From a bacterium (GTDB lineage: Bacteria > Patescibacteriota > Gracilibacteria > UBA1369 > PNNO01), in contig JAGGUZ010000015.1 in NCBI GenBank assembly GCA_021158225.1, positions 1 through 63,432 on the forward strand: 63,432 bases of DNA, written 5' to 3'. Position 1 is the stretch's first letter. Each line of letters starts with the position of its first letter. Of the stretch, positions 3,993 to 48,605 are shown piece after piece. The notes under the pieces were generated by a model that ran no database searches, was not told the DNA's origin, and saw only the letters and a list, made by a program, of their open reading frames with translations. Both the position numbers and the translations under genes were made by a program.

Positions 3993-4075
3993 AGGATTAC
4001 TGCATAGCATAACAGGGGGCTTGACAAAAGCAATAAAGATGTTACAATGGGAGCCTTTAATTCATTGTAGTATTT

Positions 4076-13732: not shown

Positions 13733-13903
13733 ATGATCTTTAACTGCATCAGTTGCGGGAAGGCTGTGTCAAGCCATCGAGATATTTGCCCATACTGCAA
13801 AACAGATATTACCGAAATCAACGAGAAACTCAATAGACAACCGAGTAACCATATGATTAAGGGTAAATTAAAAGGAACAATACTTGCATTTGTGCATCGT
13901 TAA
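13733..13903 (+). CDS. small zinc-ribbon protein (56 aa), not in the supplied ORF track
   Basis: Own translation: MIFNCISCGKAVSSHRDICPYCKTDITEINEKLNRQPSNHMIKGKLKGTILAFVHR. It has CxxC-x10-CxxC and starts 12 nt after the HTH gene stop. Confidence 0.45.
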   Translation: MIFNCISCGKAVSSHRDICPYCKTDITEINEKLNRQPSNHMIKGKLKGTILAFVHR

Positions 13904-15035: not shown

Positions 15036-15039
15036 GATT

Positions 15040-17243: not shown

Positions 17244-17734
17244 TTTCCTAGCATTTGAGTAATATTAAGAACCAATTGATCCAGTTTTTTATTTATTTGT
17301 TGTAGTTTTGTCATAAAAGCTGTTGTAGTTTTAATGTTGGATGTTTGTTTATAATATGTTTTTAAGAGCGCTTGCATTGTTTGGATCTCGTCATTCATTT
17401 GTTTTGAGCATGCAAGTGTATCTTTTGTCTCGGAATAAAGTTTAAAGCCTTCTTGAGGCAGATATGATTCGTATTTTGTCCTAAGGTCTTTTTTATATAA
17501 TGTAAAACGTTTAAGGGCTAGATCCAGCAGTGAAGTGTTTGTTTTCTTACTTTGAAAGTGTTGATTTAAATAAGTTCTAAATTCTTCACTTTTTTTATCT
17601 ATGTAAGGTTTCATTTCCTCGACACATTTAATATCTTTCTCTTTGGAATTGCTATTTTGCGCATTTGTAATATTTACATGCGGAAATGTTAACAATAAAA
17701 ACATGAATATTACGATGCTGATTTTATTCTTCAT
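17192..17734 (-). CDS. secreted helical protein (180 aa) with C-terminal Cys pair
   Basis: Signal peptide MKNKISIVIFMFLLLTFPHVNITNAQ. The start overlaps the giant gene stop by 11 nt. Ends ...LGKWNSLKNRVPCFVKQCL. Confidence 0.7.
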   Translation of the reverse strand: MKNKISIVIFMFLLLTFPHVNITNAQNSNSKEKDIKCVEEMKPYIDKKSEEFRTYLNQHFQSKKTNTSLLDLALKRFTLYKKDLRTKYESYLPQEGFKLYSETKDTLACSKQMNDEIQTMQALLKTYYKQTSNIKTTTAFMTKLQQINKKLDQLVLNITQMLGKWNSLKNRVPCFVKQCL

Positions 17735-20700
17735 ATTTCAGTTGGTTACTTTTTGCAAATATTGTAGATAAATCTTTTGTTCCAATTACGGCGAAGAAAT
17801 CATCTCCCGGAATAAGATCTGCTTTGTGGTCGAGAGCTGATATGCATGGACAAGAATTACATGTTGGCGTAACTATATATACCCCTTCTCCCAAGCCACT
17901 TCTTGGGTCTTTGTCTATGTTAGACAAGTCATCAGACTGGTTAAGAGGATCTGTCCCGCGTGATACTTCAAGCCCATCCATAATACCACCGTTGTCGGTG
18001 TCTGGGTCGTATGGGTCTGTCTTATATATTTCAATTTCGTCTTTTGTGGTCAGACCATCGTTATCGTCATCAAATGGATCGTCTGCAGGGAAGTTTACAG
18101 GATTTGTTCCATGTTCAACCTCGTCTTTATCATTTGTTCCGCCATGATCCGTATCGGGGTCAAATGGGTTTGTGCCAAATCTATATTCGTCAATATTGAT
18201 TAGACCTTCATGATCAGGATCTTTTGTTGCATCCGATGGGGCAAATGGGTCTAAGCCATTTTTAAGTTCCCAGACACTTGGCATACCATCATTATCATCA
18301 TCAATTAAGTAGCAGTCAAAGGCTTTTAATACTCTATCGGCAATTGCAACAAATTCAGCTCGAGTTATTTTTACATTTGGATTTCCAGCTTCTTCCGGAG
18401 TAAGTATATAAGTTTTATTTACTGCACTTTTTTTAAGTAGAACAGGAGATAGATCTTGTGCAACGGCAATATATGGAGCGTACCATGGATCATCATCTGT
18501 TTTCGTTATACCTCGTAGGCTTATAATTTTTTGTTTTTCCAAAGCTTCAAGTACTATTTTTACAGCTTCGGCACGTGATATTGAGGTATCCGGTTTAAAT
18601 GGTAAAAGCCCTGTAGCTCTATCTATTTCTCCGATATAACCGGATATAAAGCCTTGATATACTGCTTCTTTAATAATTGAGTAATAATAATCTTCTTTTG
18701 AATATTTAATATCCGAAAATAAACTTGGTTCTTTGTAGCTCTCCGGTCTTGGGATTATACAGAGCATTTTCAAGATAATATCAGTAAAATCTTTACGAGA
18801 AATAAATCCATTCGGATTAAAGTTTATTACTCCATCTTTAAATTCTCCTCGTAAAATATTTTTTTGCGAAAGATTAATTATTGAATTGTAATATGGGTCA
18901 TCTTTGTTTACATCATTAAATGGCGAAGTTGCTTTTTTTGTAGGATCTTTACCGAAGGCAATTTCTTGACTATCCGTAAATCCGTCACCATCGGAATCGT
19001 TGTTTAACGGATTTGTCTTCAATCTGTATTCCTCCAAGTTGGAAAGTCCGTCTTTATCACTATCTTTAAGTGCATCTCCCGGATTTCGTGCATTAAATCC
19101 GTACATAAATTCAAAATAATCCGGCATTCCATCGTTGTCTTGGTCGGACATCGTGTTCGCTTCAGGGGGGAGACCCAAAGCATCTCTATCCGTAATAGTA
19201 GCCGAGTTTCCATTATTAATTGCAATATAAGTTTGAGCTATAACTTTTCCATCATATAAAATTTCTATAACAAGAGGATCGTTTTCTTGAGATGGTTTTA
19301 GTTGTAAATCAAGATTGTCTACAAAAAAGTATATGTTCCCGCCGGCATCGACAATTGCTATTCTTTTGTCTACTGACGAGTCTTTTATCTCTGAGGCTCC
19401 GGTAAAATTAGGATCCGATGCCGGCAAATTGTCTATCGTAAATTGATCATTTGTGTCTTTGTCTTTAATATGTACTCCTTCAAACGATACAACCGAATCT
19501 GTTGTATATTCGGTATCCTGATTATCGATTACAACGTCCGTATTTTGATCCGGAATTAATAAAATAGTTAGCAAAATTGTTTCGGTGGATTTTTCTTTTA
19601 CCACAAGCCTTGTTGGCATTGTAGGAGGAACTGCTTCAAGTACATCCACATAATATCTATTGTCAATAATGGTAATTCGTCCGGTTTTGTCGTCTATTTC
19701 GGCAACGGTATCTCCATCGGAATTTTTTAAAATCAAAGTGTCTTCAAATTTAAGATTCTTAACTTTAAACAAACCTTCTTTATCTGTAGAGTACATGCCG
19801 TTTTTATCTGCTTCGTCTGTAATTAATTGTTTACTAAGACCTTCTCTTTCACGAATTAATGCAATTGGGATATCTTTGGCAGGAGGATTAATTGAACCAG
19901 TTATAGTTTTTTCATGACTCGAAGCTTCATCAAGAGTGATGGTTGGAATGACTATATTTATTGTTATTACTTGTTTGCCGTCATTTAGAGATTCATCAAT
20001 AGCGTTAAGTACAACAATTTTTTTGCCGATTTCTTCAAAAGGTCCAAGTTCAAATATAGGATTTGTTTTATCGCTATTTGTAATGTCTCGGTCGTTCATA
20101 GGCTCTCCATCGTTATTCGAGTCCGTTTCCGGATCATTATCTAAGTAGTATTCGGTAATATTTCCTTCAGTATCAAATGATGAAGATGCATCAAGTCTCA
20201 AAGTTTGATAAAGAATTACTGTTTTTTCAGAAGGTCCGGCTTGCGCATACGGAGGTTGTTTGTCCGAACATAGTTGAGGTGCAAGTAGCTCGGTTTCCGA
20301 AGGATTACTTCTGTTCCCATTTTCATCAAACGTATATATTTGAGCGTAATAATTCCCTTCATCCGTATCCAATGAAACAAACGGATTGTTTGGGTCTATT
20401 AATTCTTTCATAAGCAATGTGTCTTGAGGACCAAGATATGTTTGTGCCCCATTCATAAACTTAACGGATGTATATCCACTTGTCATTTCGATGTAATCTC
20501 CAAAATTAACGAGCATTCCTTCTTCAAGTTTTTCCTCTGTTTTTTCTTCGGATTTTGGGTCAAAAATTTCAACTTTTCCGCTTGCAACTTGCAATGTCAA
20601 ATCATCAAAATAATTTTCCGAAATTGGCATTAATACATTTTTACTAAGAGCCAAAGTTTGTTTGTTCTTATCCGGCGGAGTAATTACAATAATACTGTCT

Positions 20701-23700
20701 TCCATCATATGGATTACATCCCCTTTTTTTATTTGAGTTTTCCTAGTTCCCGGAGAGATTACTTGTCTTGGAGTTGTATTAATGGTTCCATCACCATTAA
20801 GATTTTCCAGGTAGCCAAGACCTTTGTCGTTATTTGATGCAAAGAAATAGCTGTTTGTATCCAATGAGATTAAGTCGCCGTTTTTGTATTCCAATTTAAC
20901 TTTGCCATTTTCATTTACAACTTTTGAACCTTCTTGAAGGAATAAGTTAGTGAAGAAATTACTTTTAAATTCGGCGGTTCCTTCGTTTATAATTATCTCA
21001 AAATTTCCTGGTTCATATTTGGGGAGAGAAATGGAAGAATTCGGACCAAGTATTAATTGACTACTATCCGAGAATGTTATTGTGATTTGCGTGGCGGGAT
21101 CGGAACTTGTTTCGATTGAGTCGCCAAATCCATAATATAAAGTATTTTCTCCATTAACAGTAAACGAACCGTTAACTGCGGTTATCTCAATATCATTATT
21201 TACACGTCCGATTGTTGTTTGAGTATTTGCATTTTCAAGTACTTCAATCTTGTGTGAAGGTGTATAGGTGTTTTTCCCAATATTATTTAGAGAATCTTTA
21301 TATACTATTTCATATCCGCCTATTATTCCGGAATTTGTTTCGTTCCAACTAAAGTCCGTTGAAGTTCCGGAATCGTAATTTGTTCCAAATCCATGAACAG
21401 ATGGACTTTTTGGAATAAATTCAGATAGATTATATACACTTGGGGCTGTTGTGTTGCGCTTTGTATATTTGCTGTTTTTTGGCTGTTTGAAGTTTTCTTT
21501 TAAGTAGACATTGCCACCATACGAGTAAATTATGTCTTCATCCGTGTCTTCGTCTATGTCTGTTATAATTGCGTGATTTTCAAGAGAGCTTTCCCCTTCG
21601 TACATTAATATTCGCTCATTTACTCCTTTATCAGCATTGTAGACATACAAACCTTTTATGGCAGGGGTTGTATTTGCTCCTGTGGCTGTATCTTCGTCTA
21701 CGATATCGCTTGATATTGCATTTGTATTTACAGCCAGTAGTTTTCTGTTTGGAGAAGGGATATAAGGAGTATTGCTTGCAAACTCAGCTTTTGCCAAGTA
21801 GTGCTTAAGTGGAGAAGTTTTGTAGATATTATTTATATCCTTATTTGAATTTTGATTTTTAACATAAGCTATTAACGCACTTCTTAGTCCAATCAATTTA
21901 TTGTTTTTCATTAGATTCGGAAAATCCTCTTGCATAATTGAATTTTCGATGTCATTAATTGTGCGATTTTTTATATTCTCCGGAGATATATATGTTTGTT
22001 TTGCTATTAGATTATAAGAATCCGGAATTGTTTTAATATATTCTTCTTGTTCTTTCGCAATGTTTTGTAATTTGGCTATGGCGTTTAAATATTCATTTGC
22101 AAGATTATATGTTATTGCGTCGGCTGTTTTATTAATACCTTTGACGACACCGTTTTCAACAGTGCTTTCAATTTTATCCAAGTTTGGAGTTGGAAGTTTT
22201 TGAGGTAAGTTTGTGATATCTGTTACTATCGAATTCCATACTTCGGCAATTTTATTAACTATGTCGTACATTTTTTCGGTTTCAACTCTAAAATCCACTT
22301 TACTGGTAACTTTTATTTTTTCAACAAAAGGATAACTTATGGATGGGGTTTGAAATTTGAAAGACATATCCATAGGGAATACAGTGCTAAGAGGTCTTGC
22401 GGATAAAGCTTCAATATGAGTTTTTAGATTATCTTGACTTATAGGTAGTATCGCTTTTTTTAGCATACATATTAATTTGATGATTTTTGCGATTACTGAA
22501 AGTACTGCTTTTATAGAATCTGCAATTGGCGGAATTTTAGGTGGTTTAGGTATGTCCGGTAATTGTGGCATTGGGATAGGAGGCAAATCCGGTAATTCCG
22601 GAAGATTTGGTAATTCGGGCAACATAGGGATTTTCGGTAAATTAATACCGGTTTCAACACCTATATTTATTTCCGGAAGGTCAGGAAGGTCAGGAAGTTT
22701 AAGAGGTGGAATGTCCGGAAGGATTATTGATTCTGTTTTGAATGTTACATCTGGCCAGATAATTTTGTATCCAAGCTGAACTTTTGAAAAATCAAAATAG
22801 AAATCCGGTAGTTTTGGGAATGGTATTATTGGAATTTCAGGTATGACCCCCGTTATTAGAGTTATAAGATTTTGAAATAAACTATATCTATCGGACGAAC
22901 AAGAGTCACAACCTTTCATATATTGTTCCATAATTTTGTTTATTTCTTCCCATATTTGCAGGATTTTTTTAATTTGTTTTATAAGATCCGTCCAACCTTT
23001 AATTCTTTGTACTTGTTTCTTAAAATATCCTCCCATGTAATTTATAATTGTGTCGATATAGCAAATTACTTGAAGAAGATATTTTGTTTCTATTTCTCTC
23101 CATTCAAGAATTTTTATTGGTAGTTTTTTATATTCTTCCAATATTTGTATATTTTTTTCTACACTTTTAATTGTCTCATCTATATTTGCGTATAATTTTA
23201 CACAAGTTTGTTGTTTTAATATTTCCGAGTCGCTTTTATTTTTAAGTTTATTAAGATTACATGGTAATTTTAGCTTGTATTTTTTCACTTCTCTTTTAGC
23301 GTTTGCCACCCAGTTTTTAAGTTTCGTTTGCATTTTGGCAATTTCCGCCTGTGATAAAGAAGGAATTTTAAATGTTATTGGTCTGGCTTCAATCTCTACA
23401 ATCGGAAGTTTGTTTATATATGTAAGCACATCGAATAAATTTTTAAACTTGGCTTTTGGAGGGACTCCGCTTACAAATGCATTCGGATCCGGATAAAGTA
23501 CATATAAATCCGGAAGATCGGCAAGTTTTGTAACTACTTCATCCAATTGTTTTGCAAACCATCCTGCTATTATGTTTACGAAACCCGGTACGCGACTGTT
23601 TGTTTTCCCGGAACCGCTAACTTGGTATTTCCCAAGAACTGAGCTCCCGTTTAATCCGCCACTGTCGGATCGACCGCTAACGGACAAAGATCCACTGCTT

Positions 23701-26700: not shown

Positions 26701-29700
26701 TTGTCCGCAAAGTTTCCATATTTATCATATAGTCTGGCTGTAATTTCAACCGGATCTTGTGTAGAAGCATCAAATTTTTTCTGAGCTGAATTTAATTTTA
26801 TTGTAACGGGTTTATTTGCAAGCGTTTTGATGTCCAGTATTCCTGGAGTTATTCCGGGAACTGTGGCGCTTATTTCAAGTTGTCCTGTTTGCAATGCGGA
26901 AACAAACTCAATTGAGGCGGATCCATTTTCGAGATTCAAAGATTTCTCTCCGACAAAATTACCAACATTGTCATTGCTTTGTGAAAACGTAATCGGTTGA
27001 TTGAATCCTTCAATCGTTTCGCCGTTTGAATCTTCGGCTGTCGCAGTAATTGTAATTAAATCTTCACCATTTTCTTGCAAGCCTTCTTTGTTTGCGGAAA
27101 GTACAAGATGAATGTCCGGTAGTGATTTTACAGTATTAAAATTGTAAATGTCATCGACTTTGGCATGAACTGTTATGTCACCGGGTTCTTCGGTTGAATA
27201 AAGGTCTACATTAAATAATCCTTCAAACGATTGTAATTGGATGCCATCTTCATCCGGCTGTGTATCTGTGGAAGTGTCAAGTTCACCTGGGCCGTCCGTC
27301 CAAACGGTTATCTCGTAGAAATCATTATTAACAAGATTTTTATATCTATCCATTAATGATATTTCTACCGGAGTTTTAGATAGACCGTCGGTTTTAATAA
27401 CAGAGGATTTCGGATTGACTGAGATTTGAACAGGTTCAAGAGGTTCAACAAAAACTTGATGAATGTCCGCCGGCAAAGGAGATTCGACTCGTCTTGCCGT
27501 TATATTCACAAGACCGGCTTTATGAGTTGAGGTTATTTGAGTTAGCGCAATTCCTTTGTCCACTTTTACCAATTTCTGATCAATATCAATAGTTGTTGAT
27601 GATGGATCTTTAATAATAAATTCTATAGTGCTACTTGAATCGTCTGTTTCTATGTTTCCATTTTCATCCAATTCTTCCGCAACAAGAAACAGTTTGGATT
27701 CTCCATCTGCCGGAAGATTGTCTATATAATTTTCAACTTGGCTGTTATCACCTTCTGTGATTGTTCTGTACGCAATATCTTGAACAATGTTTCCAAAAGC
27801 ATTTATACCCGCAGTAAGATTGTTGTCGATATAGTCATCATTGCTACTTAAAGGATCCGTTGCCTGAAGAAGAACTTCGTCTCCGTCGTTAATACCTCCG
27901 GAATCTGTGTCCGGATTTAAAGGATCCGTTTTGTTTTTAAATTCTTCGCTATTAATGAGCCCATCTTTATCATTGTCAAATTTGGCATCATCCGGATTGT
28001 AAGGGTCAAGTCCGTATTTTTCTTCCCATTCATTTGTCATCCCGTCTTCATCGTCGTCAACCAGAGCATCATCCGAGGGGTCAAGAGGATTTTTACCTCG
28101 GATTATTTCCGAAAGGTCATCCATTCCTCCTCCGTCTGTGTCTAAACTGTCCGGACTTGTATTGTATTGATAAATCTCAAAATTATTTGGAAGTCCGTCA
28201 GAATCATTATCCATAGCATAGCAATCGAATGTTTGCATTGCTTTGTCGACCATCATCGCAAATTCTGCGCGTGTAATCGGAGCTTGTATCCATTTATCAA
28301 AATCTTTTGTTGGGATTTGTTTAGGATATATGTCTTTCTCTTTCGCTGTCATGACATATTTGTAATACCAGGGCTTACCGTTATCCTCATATTTGTCGGA
28401 ATTAATGTTTGCTGCGTTTAGTATTACTTTTGTTGCTTCCGCTCTGCTTATAAAATATTCGGGTTTAAAGTATCCCGTATCGGTTCCACCTTTATATCCA
28501 CTAACAACTCCGGAGTTCTTTGCTTCTTTAACGCAGTATTTATAATTATCTGAAATATTCGTATCTGGGAATGGGTTTTGATTATATAAATTATCTACAG
28601 ATTCTTTTGTCTTGTCGGAGAACATACTGCAGTTCGTGCAGGTAATTCCAAGAACCATCTGTACAAATTCTTCGCGTGTAATATTGTCGTTTGGATGGAC
28701 TGAATTGTCCGGTGCTTTCTTAATAATTCCTCTTAGAATAAGATTTGTAAATGCTGAGTATGAAGGATCTTGAGGGTCAAGGTCGCTAAATAATCTTAAA
28801 TCTTTTTTAAGCGGATCATATCCGTATTTTATTTCTTCTCCGTCATTAAATTTGTCTCCGTCCGTATCTTTATTTAATCTGTCTGTTCCAAGAATCATTT
28901 CTTGAATGTCTGTTAAACTGTCTTTATCCGTATCATCTTTTTGGGTACTCTGAGCGTATGCTGTTTTAATTGATCTTAAAATTTTACCGAGTAAATTCTC
29001 ATGCGTTTCTATGGTTCCGAGTCTATAACCTATTGCGACTTTGGCGATGTCGTGTCCTGTGGCATCTTCTATTACAAACAAATAAGGTTCATTAGGTTTA
29101 TCTTGGTTTGCTACATTTAAGAAAAATTCGTCACCTAGATATACATTTCCTTTATCTGTTATTTTAGCTATTTTCTTTGAGTATTCTCCACGGTTGTCAA
29201 CTATGTAGACATTTGCATTGTCTTGATAAGTAGTTATATTGTCTTGCGAATTAACATCTTGTACATGAACTCCTTGTAATGTTGACAATACGGATTCCAG
29301 GTTTACATTTGAGTCTTCCAAGACAACTGATTCTTCTTTCTCCGGCAAAATGCTCACGCTTGCAAGCTCGTCTCCGGATTTAATTTTAACTATTGCAATT
29401 CGCATTGGTTTACTTGCTGTAGATTCAAAAACTTCAACTTCGTAGTTAGTATCTTTGATTGTTATTTTTCCGGTTTGGGAATCTATTTCTGCAATTGAAT
29501 TACCTTGATCGTCTTTTACGGAATAGTTTTGTAAGATTTCTTCATCGTATGTTGGAGCTTTAAAAACTTGGTTTTCGTAAGTTAATACTTTAATTTTCTT
29601 GGCCTCACTTGTTAAGTGTAATATGTTTGAAGTTATATTGTTTTGTGTATTAACGCTTACTGCGCGCACTGTAAAATCTCCCGAAATATCGGTTGCGTTA

Positions 29701-32700
29701 ATTTTGAATACAGCTTTTCCGTTAATAAGATTTATATGATCGGATCCATATATCTCCGCTTTTGGACTGTCGCTGTCGGAAATAACAAAATATACTTGAG
29801 TGTAAGAATCAAAATAGTTTTGTTTGTTTGCGTCATCCATTGCGCTAACAATAATTTCATAAGGTTTTATGCTCCCAGTTAGAATCATATTCGTATCGTC
29901 TTGAAATTTTATTGATAGATTAACCGTATTTTCGGCTCCGTCTGGGATCCCATTCCCATCCGAGTCCGATAACGCTTTTTTAATGTCATCTTCGCTAAGG
30001 CCCTCAATAAAGGATGCTATATCGTTATTTCCGTCGGAGCATGCCGGTTGAAAACTTAATCCCTTCGGAAGTTTTGCCAGATCTCCAAGATATTTAACCA
30101 AATAAGCTATCCATGCAGGCAGAATAATAGCTTCGGATTCAGCTTTACTCCCAGAATCTTCTTTTTCTTCTCCTTCAAGATTTCCTTTTGGATTTAACCA
30201 GTCCGGATCGTTATCTTTAACATCCGGATTTTTATCTACGGAAAAATTAATTTTGTCGGCTGTTCCATCGGCAGTAAAGTAAAAATACTCATAACCGTTT
30301 TTTGTTTCGCCGGTATAAGCATCTTTTTGCTTATCCAAGTAAGTCTTAAATACATATAGATGTTTCTTATCGATAGATGCATTCTTCCACCAAACGGTGT
30401 CGTCAACCATTTTATGTGTGGTTTTATCAAGTACTTGATTCAAATACTTGGTTTCATCGGATTGTATTGTTCCCGTAAGTTTACCTGTGATGTTGCTTGC
30501 ATTTGCTCCAGGTAAATTAATAAGCTCATCTTCCATATCTTTTAATTTCTTCTCATAATCGTCAGCATCTTTGGCTTCAAAAATATTCGGATAAATTATT
30601 TTGTGATAAACACCGTTTGTATCTACGAACGATACATATCTTGGATCGTCAATTGGCAATGTGTCTATTGTACCTTTTTTAAGTTGATGTCGGATTGTCT
30701 CCGGAGTTGGTTCTTTGTGGAACTCTAAACTGTTTATTCCTTGATTAAATACTGTTGGAGTTTTTGTGATATAAAGATCTATTTTTTTGATATTTGAAAA
30801 TGGCGGTTTTTGGATAATAAAATGATTTTTCCTGTTCCCTAAAATTTTGAGGCCTATTTCATATGGATCATCAGAATTTATTTTATAGTTTAAATTGTAT
30901 TCATCCGGTTCGTCAATTTCCCCATCATTGTCGTTATCGACTCCGTCGAATCCTCCATAGATATCAAAGATGTCCTTAAATGATATAGACGGATTTGCTA
31001 AAAGTAATATGTCTTCATTCGGTCTATACTTAGGTCCCGGCAATGGTATTGCGGCTTTTTGCTCTTCCGTATTTGTAGAATTAAGTGCCAATATATAATT
31101 TGCCACTTCCGCAAGATAATTGTTAAAGCGAGATTTTTCTCTAAAATCGTAACATCCTCCGATTCCAAGTGCGTATTTCGATATGTCTTTTTTTGCCATT
31201 GAGCCGTTCTCGTCGTATATCCATTTTGATGCTATATCGGGGAAACATCGGTCAGGAGTACCAATTTTATCTCCATCCGTAGTAATCATGTTGCCACTAT
31301 AACAGTACCCATATTTATCAGCATTTGCTTGATCATCTTTTGTATCGAAATCGTATAGTCTGTTTAATTCGCTGTCGCCTCTAAAAATTGTACATTCTTG
31401 CGCACTGTCTAAAGTTGTGGCCGGCTTCCCATAATAGTAAACCGTATTGTATGTCCCCAAATTAGGATCGTTATAACTTTTTACATTATTATTTACGAAA
31501 TCCCAAGAAGTTAAATTTGCTGTTGAATTATCGTCAAAAGTAACTTGACCGCTGAGTTTTACGCTATTTATTATTGGAATTGTTCCTTGCAGTGGAGCAA
31601 CTATTGCATCAATTTTTCTTTCTATCGCATCGTTTACCATTCTTAAGTATTCTTGTGTGTGTAAATCTTTTGTAGCAATTAAAGAAACAATCGAGTCGTA
31701 GGAATCGTATCTTCCCGTGCCCCTTATAAGGTCATTTGCTTTTTGGAGATAATTTTTATATAACTCATTAAATTTTGTTGTGTAGGAAAGAACTATATTT
31801 CTACTATAAGCATCCGGAAGTCCTTTAAACATATCGGTATTTACAAGACTTTCAAGATTTTTGCCTCCATCTTCATCAATAAATCCATCTCCGTCGTTAT
31901 CGATACCATCTTGTAAATCTTCATCTATATGTCCATCCATATCATCATCTATTCCATCTCCTTCCGGAGAGGGTGTACCAATAATTTTTTTAAGTAATTC
32001 TTTCGAGAATCTTTTGTATGCAAGATCTTCAAGAAATTTTGTATGGTTTTCATATCTTTTACCAAGCGTTTTGTCATACATTTCTTGTTCCCAAATTAAA
32101 TCTGCGTAAAGAAGTTTTTTATCGTGAATTGTAAAGTCACTATTCCCAGTATGAAAAAGATGATTTTTATCGAAATAATAAGCATAGCTTTCCGGTGTGT
32201 CTAAATCTTCGGTTGGAGCTTTTATTACTCCGTGCCACGCTTCAATCTTAGGATTCAGGCTGTCTGAATTATATTCAAAGTTACTTGTTGCTTTATTATA
32301 TACATAAACCGGATGTATGAAATCGATATATGGAAGTATGCTTGTAAACTTAAAACCGTTTTTACTTACAACAGGAAGTGGTACATCTCCTATAATAATT
32401 ATGCCATCAAGCCTGCTTTTTCCATTAATGCTTTTATCTCCTTTAAAATATAGAGTTTCAAGAGCCTCCGCTATTTTATTAGGCCGTTGGCTTTTATTAA
32501 CTTTGATTATTACAGAACGAGTAAAAGGATCTGAAAGCTGAGTATCTTTTGCAAATCTGTAAATTCGTTCTCTTAAAGTTTGTTCAGGCAGATCTGCAGG
32601 GTACTTTGTTTTTAATCCTTCATAAGGATTGTTGTCGTTAATTAAAGATTCATCAACAAGAATTGCAATAATAGATGTTACTTTTACGGGGTCGTTTTTT

Positions 32701-32825
32701 ATAGGAGGTGTTTGCGTTTGGGCAAATATAACAGGCGCGGTTAGAATTTGACCACCGAGTATAACCGAAATAAGTATTCCGGAGATAAGTTTTTGCAGTT
32801 TTATTTTAAGCTTTATTTTTTGCAT
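17724..32825 (-). CDS. giant mosaic cell-surface protein (5033 aa): SLH-anchored, Asp-repeat (TSP3-like), Ig-like, FG-GAP and PKD-like modules
   Basis: Single uninterrupted 15,102-nt ORF with Sec signal MQKIKLKIKLQKLISGILISVILGGQILTAPVIFAQ. Multiple recognisable extracellular modules are listed as sub-features below. Every ORF on other frames inside it is a short or low-complexity shadow. Confidence 0.9.
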   Translation of the reverse strand: MQKIKLKIKLQKLISGILISVILGGQILTAPVIFAQTQTPPIKNDPVKVTSIIAILVDESLINDNNPYEGLKTKYPADLPEQTLRERIYRFAKDTQLSDPFTRSVIIKVNKSQRPNKIAEALETLYFKGDKSINGKSRLDGIIIIGDVPLPVVSKNGFKFTSILPYIDFIHPVYVYNKATSNFEYNSDSLNPKIEAWHGVIKAPTEDLDTPESYAYYFDKNHLFHTGNSDFTIHDKKLLYADLIWEQEMYDKTLGKRYENHTKFLEDLAYKRFSKELLKKIIGTPSPEGDGIDDDMDGHIDEDLQDGIDNDGDGFIDEDGGKNLESLVNTDMFKGLPDAYSRNIVLSYTTKFNELYKNYLQKANDLIRGTGRYDSYDSIVSLIATKDLHTQEYLRMVNDAIERKIDAIVAPLQGTIPIINSVKLSGQVTFDDNSTANLTSWDFVNNNVKSYNDPNLGTYNTVYYYGKPATTLDSAQECTIFRGDSELNRLYDFDTKDDQANADKYGYCYSGNMITTDGDKIGTPDRCFPDIASKWIYDENGSMAKKDISKYALGIGGCYDFREKSRFNNYLAEVANYILALNSTNTEEQKAAIPLPGPKYRPNEDILLLANPSISFKDIFDIYGGFDGVDNDNDGEIDEPDEYNLNYKINSDDPYEIGLKILGNRKNHFIIQKPPFSNIKKIDLYITKTPTVFNQGINSLEFHKEPTPETIRHQLKKGTIDTLPIDDPRYVSFVDTNGVYHKIIYPNIFEAKDADDYEKKLKDMEDELINLPGANASNITGKLTGTIQSDETKYLNQVLDKTTHKMVDDTVWWKNASIDKKHLYVFKTYLDKQKDAYTGETKNGYEYFYFTADGTADKINFSVDKNPDVKDNDPDWLNPKGNLEGEEKEDSGSKAESEAIILPAWIAYLVKYLGDLAKLPKGLSFQPACSDGNNDIASFIEGLSEDDIKKALSDSDGNGIPDGAENTVNLSIKFQDDTNMILTGSIKPYEIIVSAMDDANKQNYFDSYTQVYFVISDSDSPKAEIYGSDHINLINGKAVFKINATDISGDFTVRAVSVNTQNNITSNILHLTSEAKKIKVLTYENQVFKAPTYDEEILQNYSVKDDQGNSIAEIDSQTGKITIKDTNYEVEVFESTASKPMRIAIVKIKSGDELASVSILPEKEESVVLEDSNVNLESVLSTLQGVHVQDVNSQDNITTYQDNANVYIVDNRGEYSKKIAKITDKGNVYLGDEFFLNVANQDKPNEPYLFVIEDATGHDIAKVAIGYRLGTIETHENLLGKILRSIKTAYAQSTQKDDTDKDSLTDIQEMILGTDRLNKDTDGDKFNDGEEIKYGYDPLKKDLRLFSDLDPQDPSYSAFTNLILRGIIKKAPDNSVHPNDNITREEFVQMVLGITCTNCSMFSDKTKESVDNLYNQNPFPDTNISDNYKYCVKEAKNSGVVSGYKGGTDTGYFKPEYFISRAEATKVILNAANINSDKYEDNGKPWYYKYVMTAKEKDIYPKQIPTKDFDKWIQAPITRAEFAMMVDKAMQTFDCYAMDNDSDGLPNNFEIYQYNTSPDSLDTDGGGMDDLSEIIRGKNPLDPSDDALVDDDEDGMTNEWEEKYGLDPYNPDDAKFDNDKDGLINSEEFKNKTDPLNPDTDSGGINDGDEVLLQATDPLSSNDDYIDNNLTAGINAFGNIVQDIAYRTITEGDNSQVENYIDNLPADGESKLFLVAEELDENGNIETDDSSSTIEFIIKDPSSTTIDIDQKLVKVDKGIALTQITSTHKAGLVNITARRVESPLPADIHQVFVEPLEPVQISVNPKSSVIKTDGLSKTPVEISLMDRYKNLVNNDFYEITVWTDGPGELDTSTDTQPDEDGIQLQSFEGLFNVDLYSTEEPGDITVHAKVDDIYNFNTVKSLPDIHLVLSANKEGLQENGEDLITITATAEDSNGETIEGFNQPITFSQSNDNVGNFVGEKSLNLENGSASIEFVSALQTGQLEISATVPGITPGILDIKTLANKPVTIKLNSAQKKFDASTQDPVEITARLYDKYGNFADNADETEIKFKITEATSNYAKIEGTDTINTEDGQAKAYILGNGNSGPVHITASSDNLVTGTLEIQATEIATGEDLIGDYPDVLYGTMLGGPYGDTTKNKYLAGELLFKGNVQAVTSMTVPAKINDPLTVITPYGGIDVTNEDQIKTTFIPSNQSGLPNRILVSTSDTQEDIAKIYYQYPSDLPIKILKNTNVLGNGIYIIPKTDDDNFDFKQTNNKTSITLNGIEVLSVHNNGDVDLTNNSFDISVAQTPGPFLVLNVTYLDSDIAKIIFAVNIQNDTTITNNDFKYQPELQYENGIYIKQLKPFSDYKVDSYITTSSTNDPKGALISTSLNQISSDKSPGFSYTSLEDIYDKQGVGFDGDNKHSLFFAAGNSVGESNIPYVSDAEITLGDPTVRLDNKQLASGSGFTKDIGKPLYSSNDTIKELMLADYNNDGLKDIVLAFEDGQVRLLEHQLSAQPYEDKGKLLDLANGIYSGAAADFNNDGYDDLLFSTKESCIGEEACIYIFENNNGVLNRVNVPLDVHDKISTIKIADVNNDNYPDIITAEFSGDIKVFYNENGQINPEGQLLGNVGLNIDMNKDLKEEVLINYAGMPTEIPYDPSDNTTLDDDFNFKTLKLNIGDPSTNPDVDSSLQNKLIGMGAKSEDFLTPVDVPFIFADADPIFGTSDSSKHAVDINGSSVALGDKVTYTITLTNTSTTDIDNIMISDVLPDSLELDKDSMKCLQCENNIQLIDTGLTLRPYVISGMSIPAGKSRIITYNASVISVPEIDLDLNKNYDTPFIKDEYPDIAVRPKENNSGKQLFFYSVSKDPDTGKITYGEYIADPVPPDSPPSPFDDTDSNNNGIPDQLEDIAKSQNEGDDDNDGIPNGWDDVNGSLDDIENIISNTIDKYICKGGAGCIPMPTNKAFLAPGKINNMGIVVGTDAGTPVFVFGPVGIFLSPTLTGSLGNSVCVAGACWSTVVPMLPPDTCNAIAGAVNSVIAKAGNVVSSINSATMLVGGGGGSSGSLSVSGRSDSGGLNGSSVLGKYQVSGSGKTNSRVPGFVNIIAGWFAKQLDEVVTKLADLPDLYVLYPDPNAFVSGVPPKAKFKNLFDVLTYINKLPIVEIEARPITFKIPSLSQAEIAKMQTKLKNWVANAKREVKKYKLKLPCNLNKLKNKSDSEILKQQTCVKLYANIDETIKSVEKNIQILEEYKKLPIKILEWREIETKYLLQVICYIDTIINYMGGYFKKQVQRIKGWTDLIKQIKKILQIWEEINKIMEQYMKGCDSCSSDRYSLFQNLITLITGVIPEIPIIPFPKLPDFYFDFSKVQLGYKIIWPDVTFKTESIILPDIPPLKLPDLPDLPEINIGVETGINLPKIPMLPELPNLPELPDLPPIPMPQLPDIPKPPKIPPIADSIKAVLSVIAKIIKLICMLKKAILPISQDNLKTHIEALSARPLSTVFPMDMSFKFQTPSISYPFVEKIKVTSKVDFRVETEKMYDIVNKIAEVWNSIVTDITNLPQKLPTPNLDKIESTVENGVVKGINKTADAITYNLANEYLNAIAKLQNIAKEQEEYIKTIPDSYNLIAKQTYISPENIKNRTINDIENSIMQEDFPNLMKNNKLIGLRSALIAYVKNQNSNKDINNIYKTSPLKHYLAKAEFASNTPYIPSPNRKLLAVNTNAISSDIVDEDTATGANTTPAIKGLYVYNADKGVNERILMYEGESSLENHAIITDIDEDTDEDIIYSYGGNVYLKENFKQPKNSKYTKRNTTAPSVYNLSEFIPKSPSVHGFGTNYDSGTSTDFSWNETNSGIIGGYEIVYKDSLNNIGKNTYTPSHKIEVLENANTQTTIGRVNNDIEITAVNGSFTVNGENTLYYGFGDSIETSSDPATQITITFSDSSQLILGPNSSISLPKYEPGNFEIIINEGTAEFKSNFFTNLFLQEGSKVVNENGKVKLEYKNGDLISLDTNSYFFASNNDKGLGYLENLNGDGTINTTPRQVISPGTRKTQIKKGDVIHMMEDSIIVITPPDKNKQTLALSKNVLMPISENYFDDLTLQVASGKVEIFDPKSEEKTEEKLEEGMLVNFGDYIEMTSGYTSVKFMNGAQTYLGPQDTLLMKELIDPNNPFVSLDTDEGNYYAQIYTFDENGNRSNPSETELLAPQLCSDKQPPYAQAGPSEKTVILYQTLRLDASSSFDTEGNITEYYLDNDPETDSNNDGEPMNDRDITNSDKTNPIFELGPFEEIGKKIVVLNAIDESLNDGKQVITINIVIPTITLDEASSHEKTITGSINPPAKDIPIALIREREGLSKQLITDEADKNGMYSTDKEGLFKVKNLKFEDTLILKNSDGDTVAEIDDKTGRITIIDNRYYVDVLEAVPPTMPTRLVVKEKSTETILLTILLIPDQNTDVVIDNQDTEYTTDSVVSFEGVHIKDKDTNDQFTIDNLPASDPNFTGASEIKDSSVDKRIAIVDAGGNIYFFVDNLDLQLKPSQENDPLVIEILYDGKVIAQTYIAINNGNSATITDRDALGLPPEANTMSDQDNDGMPDYFEFMYGFNARNPGDALKDSDKDGLSNLEEYRLKTNPLNNDSDGDGFTDSQEIAFGKDPTKKATSPFNDVNKDDPYYNSIINLSQKNILRGEFKDGVINFNPNGFISRKDFTDIILKMLCIIPRPESYKEPSLFSDIKYSKEDYYYSIIKEAVYQGFISGYIGEIDRATGLLPFKPDTSISRAEAVKIVLEALEKQKIISLRGITKTDDDPWYAPYIAVAQDLSPVLLKKSAVNKTYILTPEEAGNPNVKITRAEFVAIADRVLKAFDCYLIDDDNDGMPSVWELKNGLDPFAPSDATKDPDHEGLINIDEYRFGTNPFDPDTDHGGTNDKDEVEHGTNPVNFPADDPFDDDNDGLTTKDEIEIYKTDPYDPDTDNGGIMDGLEVSRGTDPLNQSDDLSNIDKDPRSGLGEGVYIVTPTCNSCPCISALDHKADLIPGDDFFAVIGTKDLSTIFAKSNQLKYEE
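17930..19735 (-). repeat. giant protein module B (C-proximal copy of a ~570-600-aa internal duplication): beta-rich region, TSP3-like repeats, SLH triplet (~18300-18930), TSP3-like repeats
   Basis: Colinear with module A. AEIDDKTGRITIIDNRYYVDV matches AEIDSQTGKITIKDTNYEVEV. Three SLH motifs end in ISRAEAVKIVLEAL and ITRAEFVAIADRVLKAFDCY. They are flanked by D-x-D-x-DG-x-x-D-x-x-E repeats (DSDGDGFTDSQE, DDDNDGLTTKDE, DPDTDNGGIMDGLE). Confidence 0.8.
22520..22730 (-). repeat. proline-rich LP(D/E/N)LP repeat tract within the giant protein
   Basis: Translated: PDIPPLKLPDLPDLPEINIGVETGINLPKIPMLPELPNLPELPDLPPIPMPQLPDIPKPPKIPP. The DNA shows the matching degenerate ccggaa/ggtaat periodicity. Confidence 0.85.
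23540..24040 (-). other. Gly/Ser/Val/Ala-rich, Cys-punctuated, almost uncharged hydrophobic segment in the centre of the giant protein
   Basis: ICKGGAGCIPMPTNKAFLAPGKINNMGIVVGTDAGTPVFVFGPVGIFLSPTLTGSLGNSVCVAGACWSTVVPMLPPDTCNAIAGAVNSVIAKAGNVVSSINSATMLVGGGGGSSGSLSVSG... It contains a run of about 39 aa without any charged residue. Confidence 0.8.
25040..25440 (-). other. three FG-GAP/VCBS-type repeats (integrin-alpha-like) in the giant protein
   Basis: ADYNNDGLKDIVLAFEDGQVRLL, AADFNNDGYDDLLFST and IADVNNDNYPDIITAEFSGDIKVFYN. A DUF11-like stretch GDKVTYTITLTNTSTTDIDNIMISDVLP follows at ~24560-24670. Confidence 0.75.
26510..27700 (-). repeat. array of about four bacterial Ig-like (Big_1/invasin-like) domains in the giant protein
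   Basis: ~90-aa units recur, each ending in patterns such as GLVNITARRVE, GDITVHAKVDD, GQLEISATVPG and GPVHITASSDNLVTGTLEIQA. Internal motifs such as PVEISLMDRYKNLV and PVEITARLYDKYGNF also recur. Confidence 0.7.
27840..29530 (-). repeat. giant protein module A (N-proximal copy of the internal duplication): beta-rich region, TSP3-like repeats, SLH triplet (~28215-28800), TSP3-like repeats
   Basis: The SLH-like motifs are FSDLDPQDPSYSAFTNLILRGII...ITREEFVQMVLGI, FPDTNISDNYKYCVKEAKNSGVVSGY...ISRAEATKVILNA and PWYYKYVMTA...ITRAEFAMMVDKAMQTFDCY. Flanking Asp repeats include DTDGDKFNDGEE, DNDKDGLINSEE and DPDTDSGGINDGDE. Confidence 0.8.
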
Positions 32826-36815: not shown

Positions 36816-36823
36816 GGTTGTTT

Positions 36824-48581: not shown

Positions 48582-48605
48582 ATTACTTTTTATGTTATAG
48601 GATTG

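What the first reader, a model, noticed from the sequence alone, without database searches (positions are those of the whole stretch)
17724..32825. 15.1-kb gene encoding a 5033-aa mosaic surface protein, about a quarter of the whole window
One uninterrupted ORF begins with a Sec signal peptide and strings together modules that rarely co-occur.
- DxDxDG Asp clusters (EGDGIDDDMDGHIDEDLQDGIDNDGDGFIDEDGG at ~31865-31970, and GVDNDNDGEIDEPDE at ~30900-30960).
- Thrombospondin-type-3-like repeats and two separate SLH triplets.
- About four Big_1-like Ig domains and three FG-GAP repeats.
- A DUF11-like segment and a PKD-like segment (LRLDASSSFDTEGNITEYYLDNDPETDSNNDGEP, ~20090-20290).
- FecR-like beta segments (~20400-21100).
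- A central hydrophobic plus proline-rich core with no family I can name.

I recognised no enzymatic motif. In a small streamlined genome, spending 15 kb on one secreted protein argues for a central role. A plausible role is a Ca-dependent, wall-anchored adhesin or host-contact fibre of an episymbiont.
Basis: partly seen in the sequence, partly recalled or inferred. Interest (0 to 1): 0.8.

Follow-up and report, generated by a model that had tools for sequence, protein, structure and literature searches.

The report
Giant surface protein of pilus operon
The 15-kb gene is real and encodes one member of a previously undescribed, conserved family of 4,000-6,000-residue wall-anchored surface proteins that candidate-phyla bacteria (Peregrinibacteria and relatives) encode inside a type IV pilus operon, probably as the part of the pilus apparatus that contacts host cells.

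Summary
The ORF (window 17724-32825, minus strand, 5,033 aa) is intact. The same 5,033-aa gene is called on three contigs from two samples, and it contains no DNA repeats.

Pfam confirms SLH, bacterial TSP3, Big_1/invasin-like Ig, FG-GAP and DUF11. PKD is not supported and FecR is below threshold. About half of the protein matches nothing in Pfam, NCBIfam or PDB.

It is not an ad hoc mosaic.
- An exhaustive search with the central core finds 419 cluster representatives, nearly all 3.7-6.1 kaa.
- Forty full-length members align end to end with the window protein.
- Two members show the UGA=Gly recoding signature.
- At least 142 species genomes, almost all Peregrinibacteria, Peribacteria or Gracilibacteria, encode the N-terminal domain.

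The gene sits in a conserved operon: rplJ-rplL, two bitopic proteins, PilB/GspE ATPase, PilC/GspF, GspG-like pilin, GIANT, then four small secreted Cys-bearing proteins. A pilin lies within 2.5 kb upstream in 61 of 68 loci. The four downstream genes keep their order in most of the 21 metagenome loci that match the C-terminal region.

Best reading, which is an inference: a Ca-binding, SLH-anchored host-contact module of a type IV filament machine. The family and operon link appear undescribed in the literature I could search.

The parts
17724..32825 (-). Giant gene, 5,033 aa
   Evidence: ORF list and translation. The same 5,033-aa gene is called on 3 contigs from 2 samples.
32721..32825 (-). 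Sec-type signal peptide (aa 1-35)
   Evidence: Read from the translation. It is the most hydrophobic segment of the protein.
32001..32693 (-). Family-defining N-terminal alpha/beta domain (aa 45-275). Near-invariant motifs: GDVPLPVV(N)K, PYTDF, (E)IWHGVI, YFDKNHL.
   Evidence: Alignments A1, A2 and A5. No Pfam or PDB match. In the AF2 model only the first ~110 aa are confident and Rossmann-like. Foldseek gives nothing significant.
29826..31967 (-). Conserved N-terminal region of unknown fold (aa 287-1000). It holds two DxDxDG-type Asp clusters (aa 287-320, 627-641) and four near-invariant Cys (478, 508, 527, 558).
   Evidence: No Pfam hit.
27831..29519 (-). Duplicated block, copy 1 (aa 1103-1665): beta module, TSP3, SLH triplet (aa ~1340-1535, nt 28221-28808), TSP3. 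This copy is present in only about one third of family members.
   Evidence: Self-BLAST, Pfam SLH and TSP3, occupancy about 0.3 in A2.
26511..27728 (-). Array of Ig-like domains (Big_1, Invasin_D3, Glyco_hydro2_C5-like; aa ~1700-2105)
   Evidence: Pfam.
25026..26198 (-). Most conserved block of the family (aa ~2210-2600): NKHxLLFAAGNSVGESN...LGDP, followed by FG-GAP/VCBS repeats with DxNxDGxxD loops. Probably an integrin-alpha-like Ca-binding beta-propeller.
   Evidence: Pfam FG-GAP_3 and FG-GAP. Conservation profile. 91% identity to P0012 over aa 2501-2600.
24417..24698 (-). DUF11-type beta-sandwich (aa ~2710-2803)
   Evidence: Pfam DUF11 and TIGR01451.
22146..24053 (-). Family-defining central core (aa 2925-3560), in order: a Cys-knotted hydrophobic Gly/Pro-rich segment (CxGGxC..AFLAPG..SPTLTGxLG); a G/S linker; a long-helix bundle; the CDxC motif; IPFPKxPD; a Pro-rich PDLPxLP stretch; an amphipathic helix with a conserved Cys.
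   Evidence: Exhaustive phmmer finds 419 representatives. Alignments A2 and A3. No Pfam or PDB match. The AF2 model is mostly low confidence, with helices at pLDDT 70-87. Foldseek gives nothing significant.
17856..19730 (-). Duplicated block, copy 2 (aa 4366-4990): beta module, TSP3, SLH triplet (aa ~4630-4835, nt 18321-18938), TSP3 repeats. Most of this copy is conserved across the family; the TSP3 stretches are less so.
17727..17903 (-). Conserved C-terminal mini-domain (aa 4975-5033): G.Y....C..CPC....AD...GD..FA.I....KSN
   Evidence: Alignments A2 and A6.
33044..33568 (-). Prepilin-type pilin (KKG|FTLIELLIVIAIIG), GspG-like, directly upstream of the giant gene
   Evidence: Pfam N_methyl. 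NCBIfam GspG at 1e-12. A pilin homologue lies within 2.5 kb upstream in 61 of 68 related loci.
33645..34901 (-). PilC/GspF platform protein
   Evidence: Pfam T2SSF at 3.6e-57 and NCBIfam. Present in 42 of 46 loci.
34916..36163 (-). PilB/GspE-type assembly ATPase. Short form, 415 aa, lacking the N-terminal domain.
   Evidence: Pfam T2SSE at 5e-128. NCBIfam PilB and GspE at ~500 bits against PilT at 173 bits. Present in 40 of 46 loci.
36180..38026 (-). Two conserved bitopic membrane proteins (211 aa and 400 aa) in the position of PilN/PilO-type alignment proteins, directly downstream of rplJ-rplL
   Evidence: Translations show one N-terminal TM segment followed by coiled coil. Conserved in 39 to 40 of 46 loci. 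There is no significant family match; PilN scores E=1.1 and FtsB 0.005. The PilN/PilO role is an inference.
14004..17734 (-). Four conserved partner genes: 180 aa (17192-17734), 208 to 224 aa (16569-17243), 507 to 512 aa (15040-16578) and 343 aa (14004-15035). All have signal peptides, are helical, and carry conserved Cys; three of the four have one at the penultimate residue. Their reading frames overlap or abut the giant gene.
   Evidence: The same order is kept downstream of the giant gene in most of 21 metagenome loci (14 to 20 per gene) at 20-35% identity. Conserved Cys. An 11-nt overlap and an ATGA overlap. No family match.

Best explanation
**What is shown.** The gene encodes a Sec-exported surface protein of about 550 kDa with no detectable enzyme domain. 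It belongs to a collinear family of 3.7-6.1 kaa proteins that appears to be single-copy per genome. The family occurs in Peregrinibacteria/Peribacteria and reaches the UGA-recoded Gracilibacteria/Absconditabacteria-type lineages.

The gene is a fixed element of one operon. In order, the operon holds two bitopic PilN/O-position proteins, a PilB/GspE ATPase, a PilC/GspF platform, GspG-like pilin(s), the giant protein, and four small secreted Cys-bearing proteins.

**What I infer about how it works.**
- The conserved C-terminal SLH triplet pins the protein non-covalently to the cell-wall polymer. In this organism a second, duplicated triplet does the same.
- The flanking TSP3 repeats and the FG-GAP propeller bind Ca2+ and stiffen the molecule.
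- The Ig-like array, the propeller, the DUF11 domain and the two family-specific domains (N-terminal alpha/beta domain and central core) project from the wall.
- The four partner proteins assemble onto the giant protein, possibly through disulfides. They carry odd numbers of conserved Cys and near-terminal Cys, and a DsbA-like protein is encoded nearby.
- Together they form the host-contact or adhesion module that works with the type IV filament built by the upstream genes. The pilus reaches and pulls, and the giant complex holds the contact.
For: **The gene is real.**
- Intact ORF.
- No DNA repeats.
- Reproduced at 5,033 aa on three contigs from two samples.
- In 76 of 80 related loci the ORF stays open to the end of the locus, up to about 3,560 codons.

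**It belongs to a family.**
- 419 representatives at E<1e-3 and 250 at E<1e-30, almost all giant, with the core at a matching position.
- End-to-end collinear alignment of 40 full-length members plus the window protein.
- Uniform 50-90% identity to P0012 with almost no gaps.
- 142 GTDB species genomes encode a relative. The 80 loci kept each come from a different assembly.
- Recoded lineages are included: two members have W at 30 to 31 of about 65 Gly-conserved columns.

**It is linked to the operon.**
- Window context.
- Three independent relatives show the same context.
- A pilin lies within 2.5 kb upstream in 61 of 68 loci. PilC is present in 42 and PilB in 40 of 46 loci.
- The four downstream genes keep their order in most of 21 loci, 14 to 20 per gene.
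- Overlapping reading frames suggest translational coupling.

**Anchoring and Ca binding.** SLH, TSP3 and FG-GAP profile hits above cut-off. TRAE and SRAE motifs are read directly.

**Partners.** Conserved Cys pattern and a DsbA-like gene in the window.

**Background.** Giant surface proteins are proposed as host-attachment factors in the sister lineage (Vampirococcus, PMC8080830).
Against: - There is no direct evidence of adhesion, of Ca binding, or of physical association with the pilus.
- The protein has no pilin-like N-terminus, and the partners are not minor pilins.
- It evolves evenly along its length with no hypervariable tip. That is unlike many host-specificity adhesins and fits a structural machine part equally well.
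- About half of the residues, including the two most family-specific domains, have no assignable fold. The AF2 models have mean pLDDT of 47 and 50, and Foldseek finds nothing significant.
- No PilT is present in the operon, so retraction is not shown.
- The organism's lifestyle is inferred from its relatives only.
Confidence: 0.5

Rival explanations
1. Dedicated export. The upstream PilB/GspE, PilC/GspF and GspG-like pilin form a T2SS-like pseudopilus. Its job would be to push the Sec-exported giant protein and its four partners through the peptidoglycan and S-layer and assemble them on the surface. On this reading the giant protein is cargo, not a co-worker of a long pilus.
For: - The pilin's best NCBIfam match is the T2SS major pseudopilin GspG, and its AALEAYNSDNGHYP segment is GspG-like. 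The ATPase scores equally as PilB and as GspE.
- The window operon has a single pilin and no PilT.
- There is a precedent: giant genes of Omnitrophota are generally preceded by T2SS/T4P-like loci, which the authors interpret as their secretion system (bioRxiv 10.1101/2023.11.21.568195).
Against: - There is no secretin and no outer membrane to cross.
- Many relatives carry two or three pilin genes upstream.
- GspG-like folds are common among true T4 pilins of monoderms and CPR bacteria (my knowledge).
- PilT may be encoded elsewhere in the genome.
Confidence: 0.22
2. Machine part. The giant protein and its partners are a structural component of the filament apparatus itself. They would form an SLH-anchored collar, conduit or basal scaffold that guides the pilus through the wall and S-layer, taking the place of the secretin complex of diderm bacteria.
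For: - The gene has a fixed position in the operon and appears to be single-copy, since the 80 loci kept come from 80 different assemblies.
- Conservation is uniform and nearly gapless over 5,000 aa. The FG-GAP block and the core are the most conserved parts.
- Wall attachment at two points in this protein.
- No secretin is encoded in the operon.
Against: - An oligomeric ring built from a 550-kDa subunit would be extraordinarily large.
- The domain set (Ig array, integrin-like propeller, DUF11, TSP3) is typical of outward-facing adhesins.
- No transmembrane segment lies beyond the signal peptide.
Confidence: 0.15
3. Stand-alone mosaic adhesin or S-layer protein. The giant protein would have no functional tie to the pilus, and the synteny would be historical accident.
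For: Three other, smaller SLH proteins in the window show that SLH display is the organism's general strategy for surface proteins. No physical link to the pilus has been shown.
Against: - The synteny holds across relatives whose N-terminal domain is only 36-71% identical, in about 90% of loci (61 of 68).
- It extends to four downstream partner genes and includes overlapping reading frames.
- The architecture is collinear across the family, not mosaic.
Confidence: 0.08
4. Assembly artefact, chimera or pseudogene.
For: None found.
Against:: independent contigs give the same gene, orthologues carry intact ORFs, the alignment to a 5,011-aa orthologue is nearly gapless, and the gene holds no repeats.
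Confidence: 0.01

Closest known systems
Giant proteins of Omnitrophota encoded next to T2SS/T4P-like loci (West-Roberts et al. 2023, bioRxiv 10.1101/2023.11.21.568195)
   Same: Ultra-small, host-dependent or predatory bacteria. A very large gene is conserved directly downstream of GspE/GspF/pilin-type genes. Small conserved genes follow it. The proposed role is prey or host adhesion.
   Different: - Those proteins exceed 30,000 aa, have numerous TM regions and mostly carry SecA DEAD-like domains. Their loci include a secretin (gspD), and PilZ genes follow.
- Here the protein is 5,033 aa with only a signal peptide. No SecA hit appears in the Pfam or NCBIfam scans, the locus has no secretin, and the four Cys-bearing coiled-coil partners are different.
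- The lineage is different (CPR).
PilY1 / PilC type IV pilus-associated adhesins (Pseudomonas, Neisseria, Myxococcus)
   Same: A large, non-pilin, Sec-exported protein encoded next to pilin genes. It contains a Ca-binding beta-propeller-type module. This makes it a plausible functional analogue that couples the pilus to adhesion. The PilY1 features are from my knowledge.
   Different: - No sequence match to the PilY1/PilC family in Pfam or NCBIfam.
- About five times larger.
- Wall-anchored by SLH rather than carried by minor pilins.
- The partner genes have no prepilin signal.
Giant surface proteins noted in Vampirococcus lugosii and 'Ca. Peribacter riflensis' (PMC8080830, PMC4736985)
   Same: The same CPR clade. 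Very large, exported, Cys-containing proteins with DUF11, integrin and PKD-type domains, proposed to mediate host attachment. The largest Vampirococcus protein (VAMP_16_20, 4,163 aa, 'hypothetical') is the same size as the recoded family member P0154 (4,164 aa).
   Different: Those papers list such proteins only in general terms. In the passages I searched they define no family, no conserved core and no link to the pilus operon. The identity of VAMP_16_20 with this family is unconfirmed.
SLH-anchored S-layer and surface proteins of monoderm bacteria
   Same: SLH triplets with TRAE-type motifs, which bind pyruvylated secondary cell-wall polymer (established for Bacillus and Paenibacillus; my knowledge).
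   Different: The size, the second internal SLH triplet, and the pilus-operon context. Three smaller SLH proteins in the window are better candidates for the S-layer itself.
Repeat-rich giant adhesins (LapA, SiiE, MpIBP, Bap)
   Same: A Ca-binding, Ig-domain-containing, extended surface protein with no enzymatic domain.
   Different: There are no long arrays of near-identical repeats. The pfam and ncbifam scans reported no RTX or T1SS family, and none of the neighbouring genes scanned is a T1SS gene. Export is Sec-dependent, and most of the length is unique sequence.

Membership tests
SLH-domain wall-anchored proteins (PF00395) | Profile match to the SLH domain above the curated threshold | tested here: met
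   55.8 bits (aa 1346-1387 and one more stretch) and 35.5 to 40 bits (aa 4635-4680) against a cut-off of 20.8.
SLH-domain wall-anchored proteins (PF00395) | Three tandem SLH repeats with TRAE-type motifs forming one binding unit | tested here: met
   Read. The first triplet has TREE, SRAE and TRAE. The second has SRKD, SRAE and TRAE. The two triplets align with each other. Only 3 of the 6 repeats pass the HMM on their own.
SLH-domain wall-anchored proteins (PF00395) | The organism makes a pyruvylated secondary cell-wall polymer (CsaB) | not tested
   No Pfam match suggestive of a pyruvyl transferase among the roughly 30 window ORFs scanned. A few ORFs were not scanned and the rest of the genome was not available.
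PilY1/PilC pilus tip adhesins (PF05567) | Sequence homology to the PilY1/PilC C-terminal propeller | tested here: not met
   No such hit in the Pfam or NCBIfam scans of the whole protein in segments. The propeller-like region matches FG-GAP instead.
PilY1/PilC pilus tip adhesins (PF05567) | Encoded within a pilin gene cluster | tested here: met
   A pilin gene lies 218 bp upstream. A pilin homologue lies within 2.5 kb upstream in 61 of 68 related loci.
PilY1/PilC pilus tip adhesins (PF05567) | Physical association with the pilus through minor pilins | not testable with these tools
   The four partner proteins have Sec signals, not prepilin signals.
Omnitrophota-type giant proteins (West-Roberts 2023) | Longer than 30,000 aa, numerous TM regions, SecA DEAD-like domain | tested here: not met
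   5,033 aa. The only other hydrophobic window is an amphipathic helix that is not conserved as a TM segment. No SecA or DEAD hit appears.
Omnitrophota-type giant proteins (West-Roberts 2023) | Conserved T2SS/T4P-like locus immediately upstream | tested here: met
   No secretin is present here.
RTX/Bap-type repeat adhesins | Long tandem arrays of near-identical repeats, a C-terminal T1SS signal and adjacent T1SS genes | tested here: not met
   - No DNA repeats.
- No RTX or T1SS family is among the hits the pfam and ncbifam scans reported for the protein.
- The protein has a Sec signal peptide.
- The neighbouring genes are type IV filament genes.
New family proposed here: pilus-operon giant protein of Peregrinibacteria and relatives | N-terminal domain motifs GDVPLPVV(N)K, PYTDF, IWHGVI, YFDKNHL | tested here: met
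   GDVPLPVVSK, PYIDF, AWHGVI and YFDKNHLF are present at aa 147-224.
New family proposed here: pilus-operon giant protein of Peregrinibacteria and relatives | Central core motifs: CxGGxC..AFLAPG, SPTLTGxLG, DLPDxYxxYP, CDxC, IPFPKxPD, then the Pro-rich stretch | tested here: met
   (phmmer E down to 0; 64% identity to P0012) and the alignments.
New family proposed here: pilus-operon giant protein of Peregrinibacteria and relatives | Operon position between pilin gene(s) and the four Cys-bearing partner genes | tested here: met

The most novel reading that the evidence does not exclude
The giant protein and its four disulfide-linked partners would be the conserved host-attachment or attack organelle of the whole Peregrinibacteria-Gracilibacteria-Absconditabacteria clade. 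A dedicated type IV filament machine would deploy it. It would correspond to the fibrous material that bridges the ~100-nm gap between Vampirococcus and its prey.

The two family-specific domains would carry new activities. The N-terminal alpha/beta domain has a near-invariant Ser/Asp/His set (S162, D168, H198) and a non-significant best PDB match to caspase. The hydrophobic Cys-knotted core could be a protease-like or membrane-active element.
Probability: 0.25. Interest if true: 0.85.

Novelty: new variant of a known kind. Interest (0 to 1): 0.62.

Why it matters
How CPR episymbionts and predators recognise, hold and exploit their hosts is a central open question. Type IV pili are the only broadly implicated structure so far.

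This result points to a single, near-universal, very large unknown component. It is genetically tied to a pilus operon across an entire class-level lineage. That lineage includes the recoded groups, which have cultivated predatory representatives (Vampirococcus, Absconditicoccus).

The result gives a concrete target for cryo-ET, proteomics and antibody work: about 550 kDa, with defined conserved motifs and four partner proteins. It also defines two large domains with no known fold.

There is a practical lesson too. Word-index homology searches miss this family entirely, and MAG fragmentation hides it.

Tried and rejected
**Word-index protein searches.**
- The search with the core found only one partial homologue.
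- The search with a 13-sequence core alignment found nothing. The candidate lists filled to their 8,000 limit, probably with unrelated low-complexity matches. The exhaustive phmmer search was what revealed the family.

**AlphaFold2.**
- The N-terminal 964 aa with 9 sequences gave mean pLDDT 47.
- The core, aa 2925-3335 with 13 sequences, gave mean pLDDT 49.7.
- Both are too poor for fold assignment. Foldseek against PDB gave no match with E<0.3.

**Sequence and profile searches against PDB.**
- Nothing was significant for the N-terminus, the core or the 211-aa upstream protein.
- The best N-terminal hits were caspase-3 p17 at E~0.4. I keep this only as a lead.
- The best match for the 211-aa protein was FtsB at E=0.005, with PilN at E=1.1. 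Its PilN/PilO assignment therefore rests on topology and gene position only.

**Pfam on every member of the core and N-terminal alignments.** No recurrent family.

**The search for related loci.**
- Smaller, closer alignments worked.

**Promoter and terminator scans.**
- The counts were no higher than in shuffled sequence.
- I note only a promoter-like site between rplL and the 400-aa gene, and a hairpin just after the last partner gene.

**Paralogy among the four partner proteins.** hhalign probabilities were 22% or lower. Paralogy is not shown.

**Transmembrane hairpin topology.** I rejected it for the core. The only hydrophobic window (aa 3434-3462) is amphipathic and carries charged residues in homologues.

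**Literature.** Four of the ten permitted full-text searches, and reading within six papers, found only general mentions of giant surface proteins in this clade. None described this family or its operon.
Full report
**1. The observation**

The window contains one uninterrupted ORF on the minus strand, 17724-32825. It starts with ATG and encodes 5,033 codons. At 35% GC roughly 7% of random codons are stops, so an open frame of this length cannot be chance.

The N-terminus is a classical Sec signal peptide. It has a K-rich n-region, a hydrophobic core and a VIFA|QT cleavage site, with no lipobox and no prepilin motif. Apart from it, the only hydrophobic window is an amphipathic helix at aa 3434-3462. 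That helix carries charged residues in homologues, so the mature protein is predicted to be entirely extracytoplasmic.

Pfam and NCBIfam scans gave the following.
- Above the curated cut-offs: SLH, bacterial TSP3 repeats, four to five Ig-like domains (Big_1, Invasin_D3, Glyco_hydro2_C5), FG-GAP/FG-GAP_3 repeats and DUF11.
- PKD gets no hit at E<=0.1.
- FecR scores 22.9 bits, below its cut-off of 24.
- No enzymatic family is hit.
- Roughly half of the protein matches nothing. This covers aa 1-1000, ~2210-2460, ~2830-3900 and ~3960-4550.

The 'two separate SLH triplets' are explained by an ancient internal duplication. Residues 1103-1660 align with 4366-4990 at 28-36% identity. Each copy consists of a beta module, TSP3, three SLH repeats and TSP3.

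The assembly concern is answered in four ways.
- The gene has no tandem or dispersed DNA repeats.
- A gene of exactly 5,033 aa is called upstream of the identical 180-aa neighbour on three contigs from two samples (ENA ERZ23499183; JGI 3300017593, two contigs).
- The closest relative, P0012 (5,011 aa), aligns almost without gaps at 50-90% identity along the whole length.
- In 76 of 80 related genome loci the orthologous frame stays open to the end of the retrieved DNA.

**2. It is a family, not a mosaic**

A word-index search with the central core (aa 2901-3800) found only one partial Peregrinibacteria protein. An exhaustive phmmer search of 1.84 billion cluster representatives gave a very different picture.
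- 419 hits had E<1e-3.
- 250 hits had E<1e-30.
- Almost all were 3,700 to 6,100 aa long, with the match at a corresponding internal position.

A MAFFT alignment of the window protein with 40 full-length representatives is collinear from signal peptide to C-terminus.

The best-conserved blocks are these.
- The N-terminal alpha/beta domain (GDVPLPVVNK, PYTDF, EIWHGVI, YFDKNHLY).
- A block just before and within the FG-GAP repeats (NKHxLLFAAGNSVGESN...LGDP).
- The core (CxGGxCLPxPxNxAFLAPG; FRxYLSPTLTGGLG; PGFPSVITNW..DLPDxYFIYP; YQxSCDxC; IPFPKWPDI; a Pro-rich stretch; KIxCLxKKG).
- The region at aa 4150-4550.
- The C-terminal SLH triplet.
- A terminal CxxCPC...AD..GD..FA.I...KSN mini-domain.

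Only two segments are lineage-variable insertions.
- The first duplicated block with the extra SLH triplet, with occupancy about 0.3.
- The FecR-like stretch, with occupancy about 0.25.

Two members (P0154 and P0158) have Trp at 30 to 31 of about 65 otherwise Gly-conserved columns. Their Trp content is 6.1-6.5%, against a median of 0.65%. This is the signature of UGA=Gly lineages translated with the wrong code. The family therefore extends to Gracilibacteria/Absconditabacteria-type organisms.

A scan of one genome per GTDB species with the N-terminal domain found 142 genomes encoding a relative. The 80 loci kept each come from a different assembly. They are labelled almost exclusively Peregrinibacteria, Peribacteria, Gracilibacteria or Patescibacteria.

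**3. Genomic context**

On the same strand, reading in the direction of transcription, the window holds these genes.
1. rplJ, then rplL.
2. A 400-aa bitopic protein, then a 211-aa bitopic coiled-coil protein.
3. A 415-aa PilB/GspE-type ATPase. It scores about 500 bits as PilB and as GspE, against 173 bits as PilT.
4. PilC/GspF.
5. A prepilin-type, GspG-like pilin (KKG|FTLIELL).
6. The giant gene.
7. Four genes for secreted helical proteins of 180, 208 to 224, 507 to 512 and 343 aa.

The giant gene's stop overlaps the next start by 11 nt, and the following pair overlaps by ATGA.

This arrangement is conserved.
- Three homologue contigs found by exact-protein look-up show pilin gene(s) directly upstream. 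One of them shows the full set of the two bitopic-protein genes, T2SSE, T2SSF and pilin.
- Of 68 genome loci with at least 1.2 kb of upstream DNA, 61 have a pilin homologue within 2.5 kb on the same strand, and 65 have one within 6 kb.
- Of 46 loci with at least 7 kb upstream, 42 have PilC, 40 have PilB, 40 have the 211-aa gene and 39 have the 400-aa gene. These are usually preceded by rplJ-rplL.

A metagenome scan with the C-terminal region returned 21 loci that match it; 19 match nearly its whole length and two are contig-end fragments. The four downstream genes recur in the same order in most of them, 14 to 20 loci per gene, at 20-35% identity.

Each partner family has conserved cysteines, and three of the four have an odd number. 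These include a Cys at the penultimate residue in three of the four. The window also encodes a DsbA-like oxidoreductase and three smaller SLH proteins.

**4. Attempts to assign the unknown parts**

Neither the N-terminal domain nor the core matches any Pfam family. This holds even when every member of the alignments is scanned. Neither matches any PDB sequence or profile significantly.
- The best N-terminal hits are caspase-3 p17 at E~0.4.
- Together with near-invariant S162, D168 and H198-G199, this is a lead worth testing. It is not evidence.

AlphaFold2 models with shallow alignments were poor.
- The N-terminal model has mean pLDDT 47. Only a Rossmann-like beta-alpha-beta unit in the first ~110 residues is confident.
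- The core model has mean pLDDT 49.7. It shows beta-hairpins in the hydrophobic Cys-rich segment and long helices at pLDDT 70-87.
- Foldseek found nothing significant for either.

**5. Most likely function**

*Shown.* The protein is a real, conserved, exported giant protein with no detectable enzyme domain. It carries wall-binding SLH triplets and Ca-type motifs. It is genetically locked into a type IV filament operon together with four secreted partners.

*Inferred.*
- The conserved C-terminal SLH triplet fixes it to the wall polymer.
- TSP3 repeats and the FG-GAP propeller bind Ca2+.
- The Ig array and the unknown domains project outward.
- The partners assemble on it, possibly by disulfides.
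- The complex provides the durable host contact for a pilus that reaches and pulls.

I give this reading about 0.5.

*Rivals.*
- The operon is a T2SS-like pseudopilus that exports and assembles the giant protein (0.22). This is supported by the GspG-like pilin, by the absence of PilT in the operon, and by the Omnitrophota precedent, where giant genes follow T2SS/T4P-like loci.
- The protein is a structural collar or conduit of the pilus machine (0.15). The uniform conservation and apparent single-copy status favour this. The adhesin-like domain set and the size of the subunit argue against it.
- The protein is an unrelated stand-alone adhesin or S-layer protein (0.08).
- The ORF is an artefact (0.01).

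**6. Comparison with what is known**

The closest analogue in genome organisation is the set of Omnitrophota giant proteins (West-Roberts et al. 2023). This protein fails their defining features: more than 30 kaa, many TM regions, a SecA-like domain and a secretin in the locus.

The closest functional analogue is PilY1/PilC. That is a large non-pilin protein in a pilin cluster with a Ca-binding propeller (my knowledge). There is no sequence homology.

Papers on Vampirococcus and Peribacter mention giant exported proteins as likely attachment factors. In the passages I searched they do not define this family or its operon. The largest Vampirococcus protein, a 'hypothetical' of 4,163 aa, matches the length of recoded family member P0154 (4,164 aa). 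I could not confirm that they are the same protein.

I found no description of the family or its operon in four full-text searches and six papers read. The search covers open-access papers only.

**7. Verdict**

I rate the finding a new variant of a known kind, namely a giant surface or adhesion protein coupled to a type IV filament system. Two large domains have unknown fold. Interest is 0.62.

Noticed in passing
window 46471-47823 (-), 57776-58747 (+), 58838-60148 (+), 60204-61784 (+): Three further, much smaller SLH-domain proteins (450, 323 and 436 aa). Two of them lie next to a PGA_cap-family gene. They are better candidates for the S-layer proper and show that SLH display is this organism's general strategy.
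   Followed up: partly
window 47823-49580 (-): An Lgt (prolipoprotein diacylglyceryl transferase) gene and a DsbA-like thioredoxin gene lie side by side. An extracytoplasmic disulfide oxidoreductase fits the many conserved cysteines in the giant protein and its four partners.
   Followed up: no
window 342-3992 (+) and 4076-6187 (+): Two adjacent large ORFs (1,216 and 703 aa) with no Pfam or NCBIfam match at all.
   Followed up: no
window 38643-39413 (-): Ribosomal protein L10 (rplJ) carries a repetitive acidic C-terminal tail. The unit KEKTVPEE recurs about three times and is not part of standard L10.
   Followed up: no
window 13430-13720 (+): A small HTH_17 (excisionase/MerR-like) ORF and a Cys-rich 56-aa ORF (13733-13903) sit just beyond the end of the operon, before uvrA.
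   Followed up: no
P0154 and P0158 (alignment A2): Two family members have Trp at Gly-conserved positions (LWDP, IWHW) and about 6% Trp overall. They come from UGA=Gly recoded lineages but were translated with a code that reads UGA as Trp.
   Followed up: yes
L055 (JAUVQE010000014.1): A contig labelled as a Nitrospirota MAG carries the Peregrinibacteria-type PilB-PilC-pilin-giant locus. It is probably a mis-binned contig.
   Followed up: no
L079 (CAIOIA010000081.1): In this one relative the rplJ to PilC block is inverted relative to the giant gene, while a pilin gene remains upstream on the giant's strand. This looks like a local rearrangement.
   Followed up: no
L002 and L003 (relatives of the giant gene): In two relatives the N-terminal giant ORF ends after 1,567 and 1,327 aa, well before the contig end. 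These may be frameshifts or assembly errors, or genuinely split genes. L003 also has a PBECR3-domain gene between the pilins and the giant gene.
   Followed up: no
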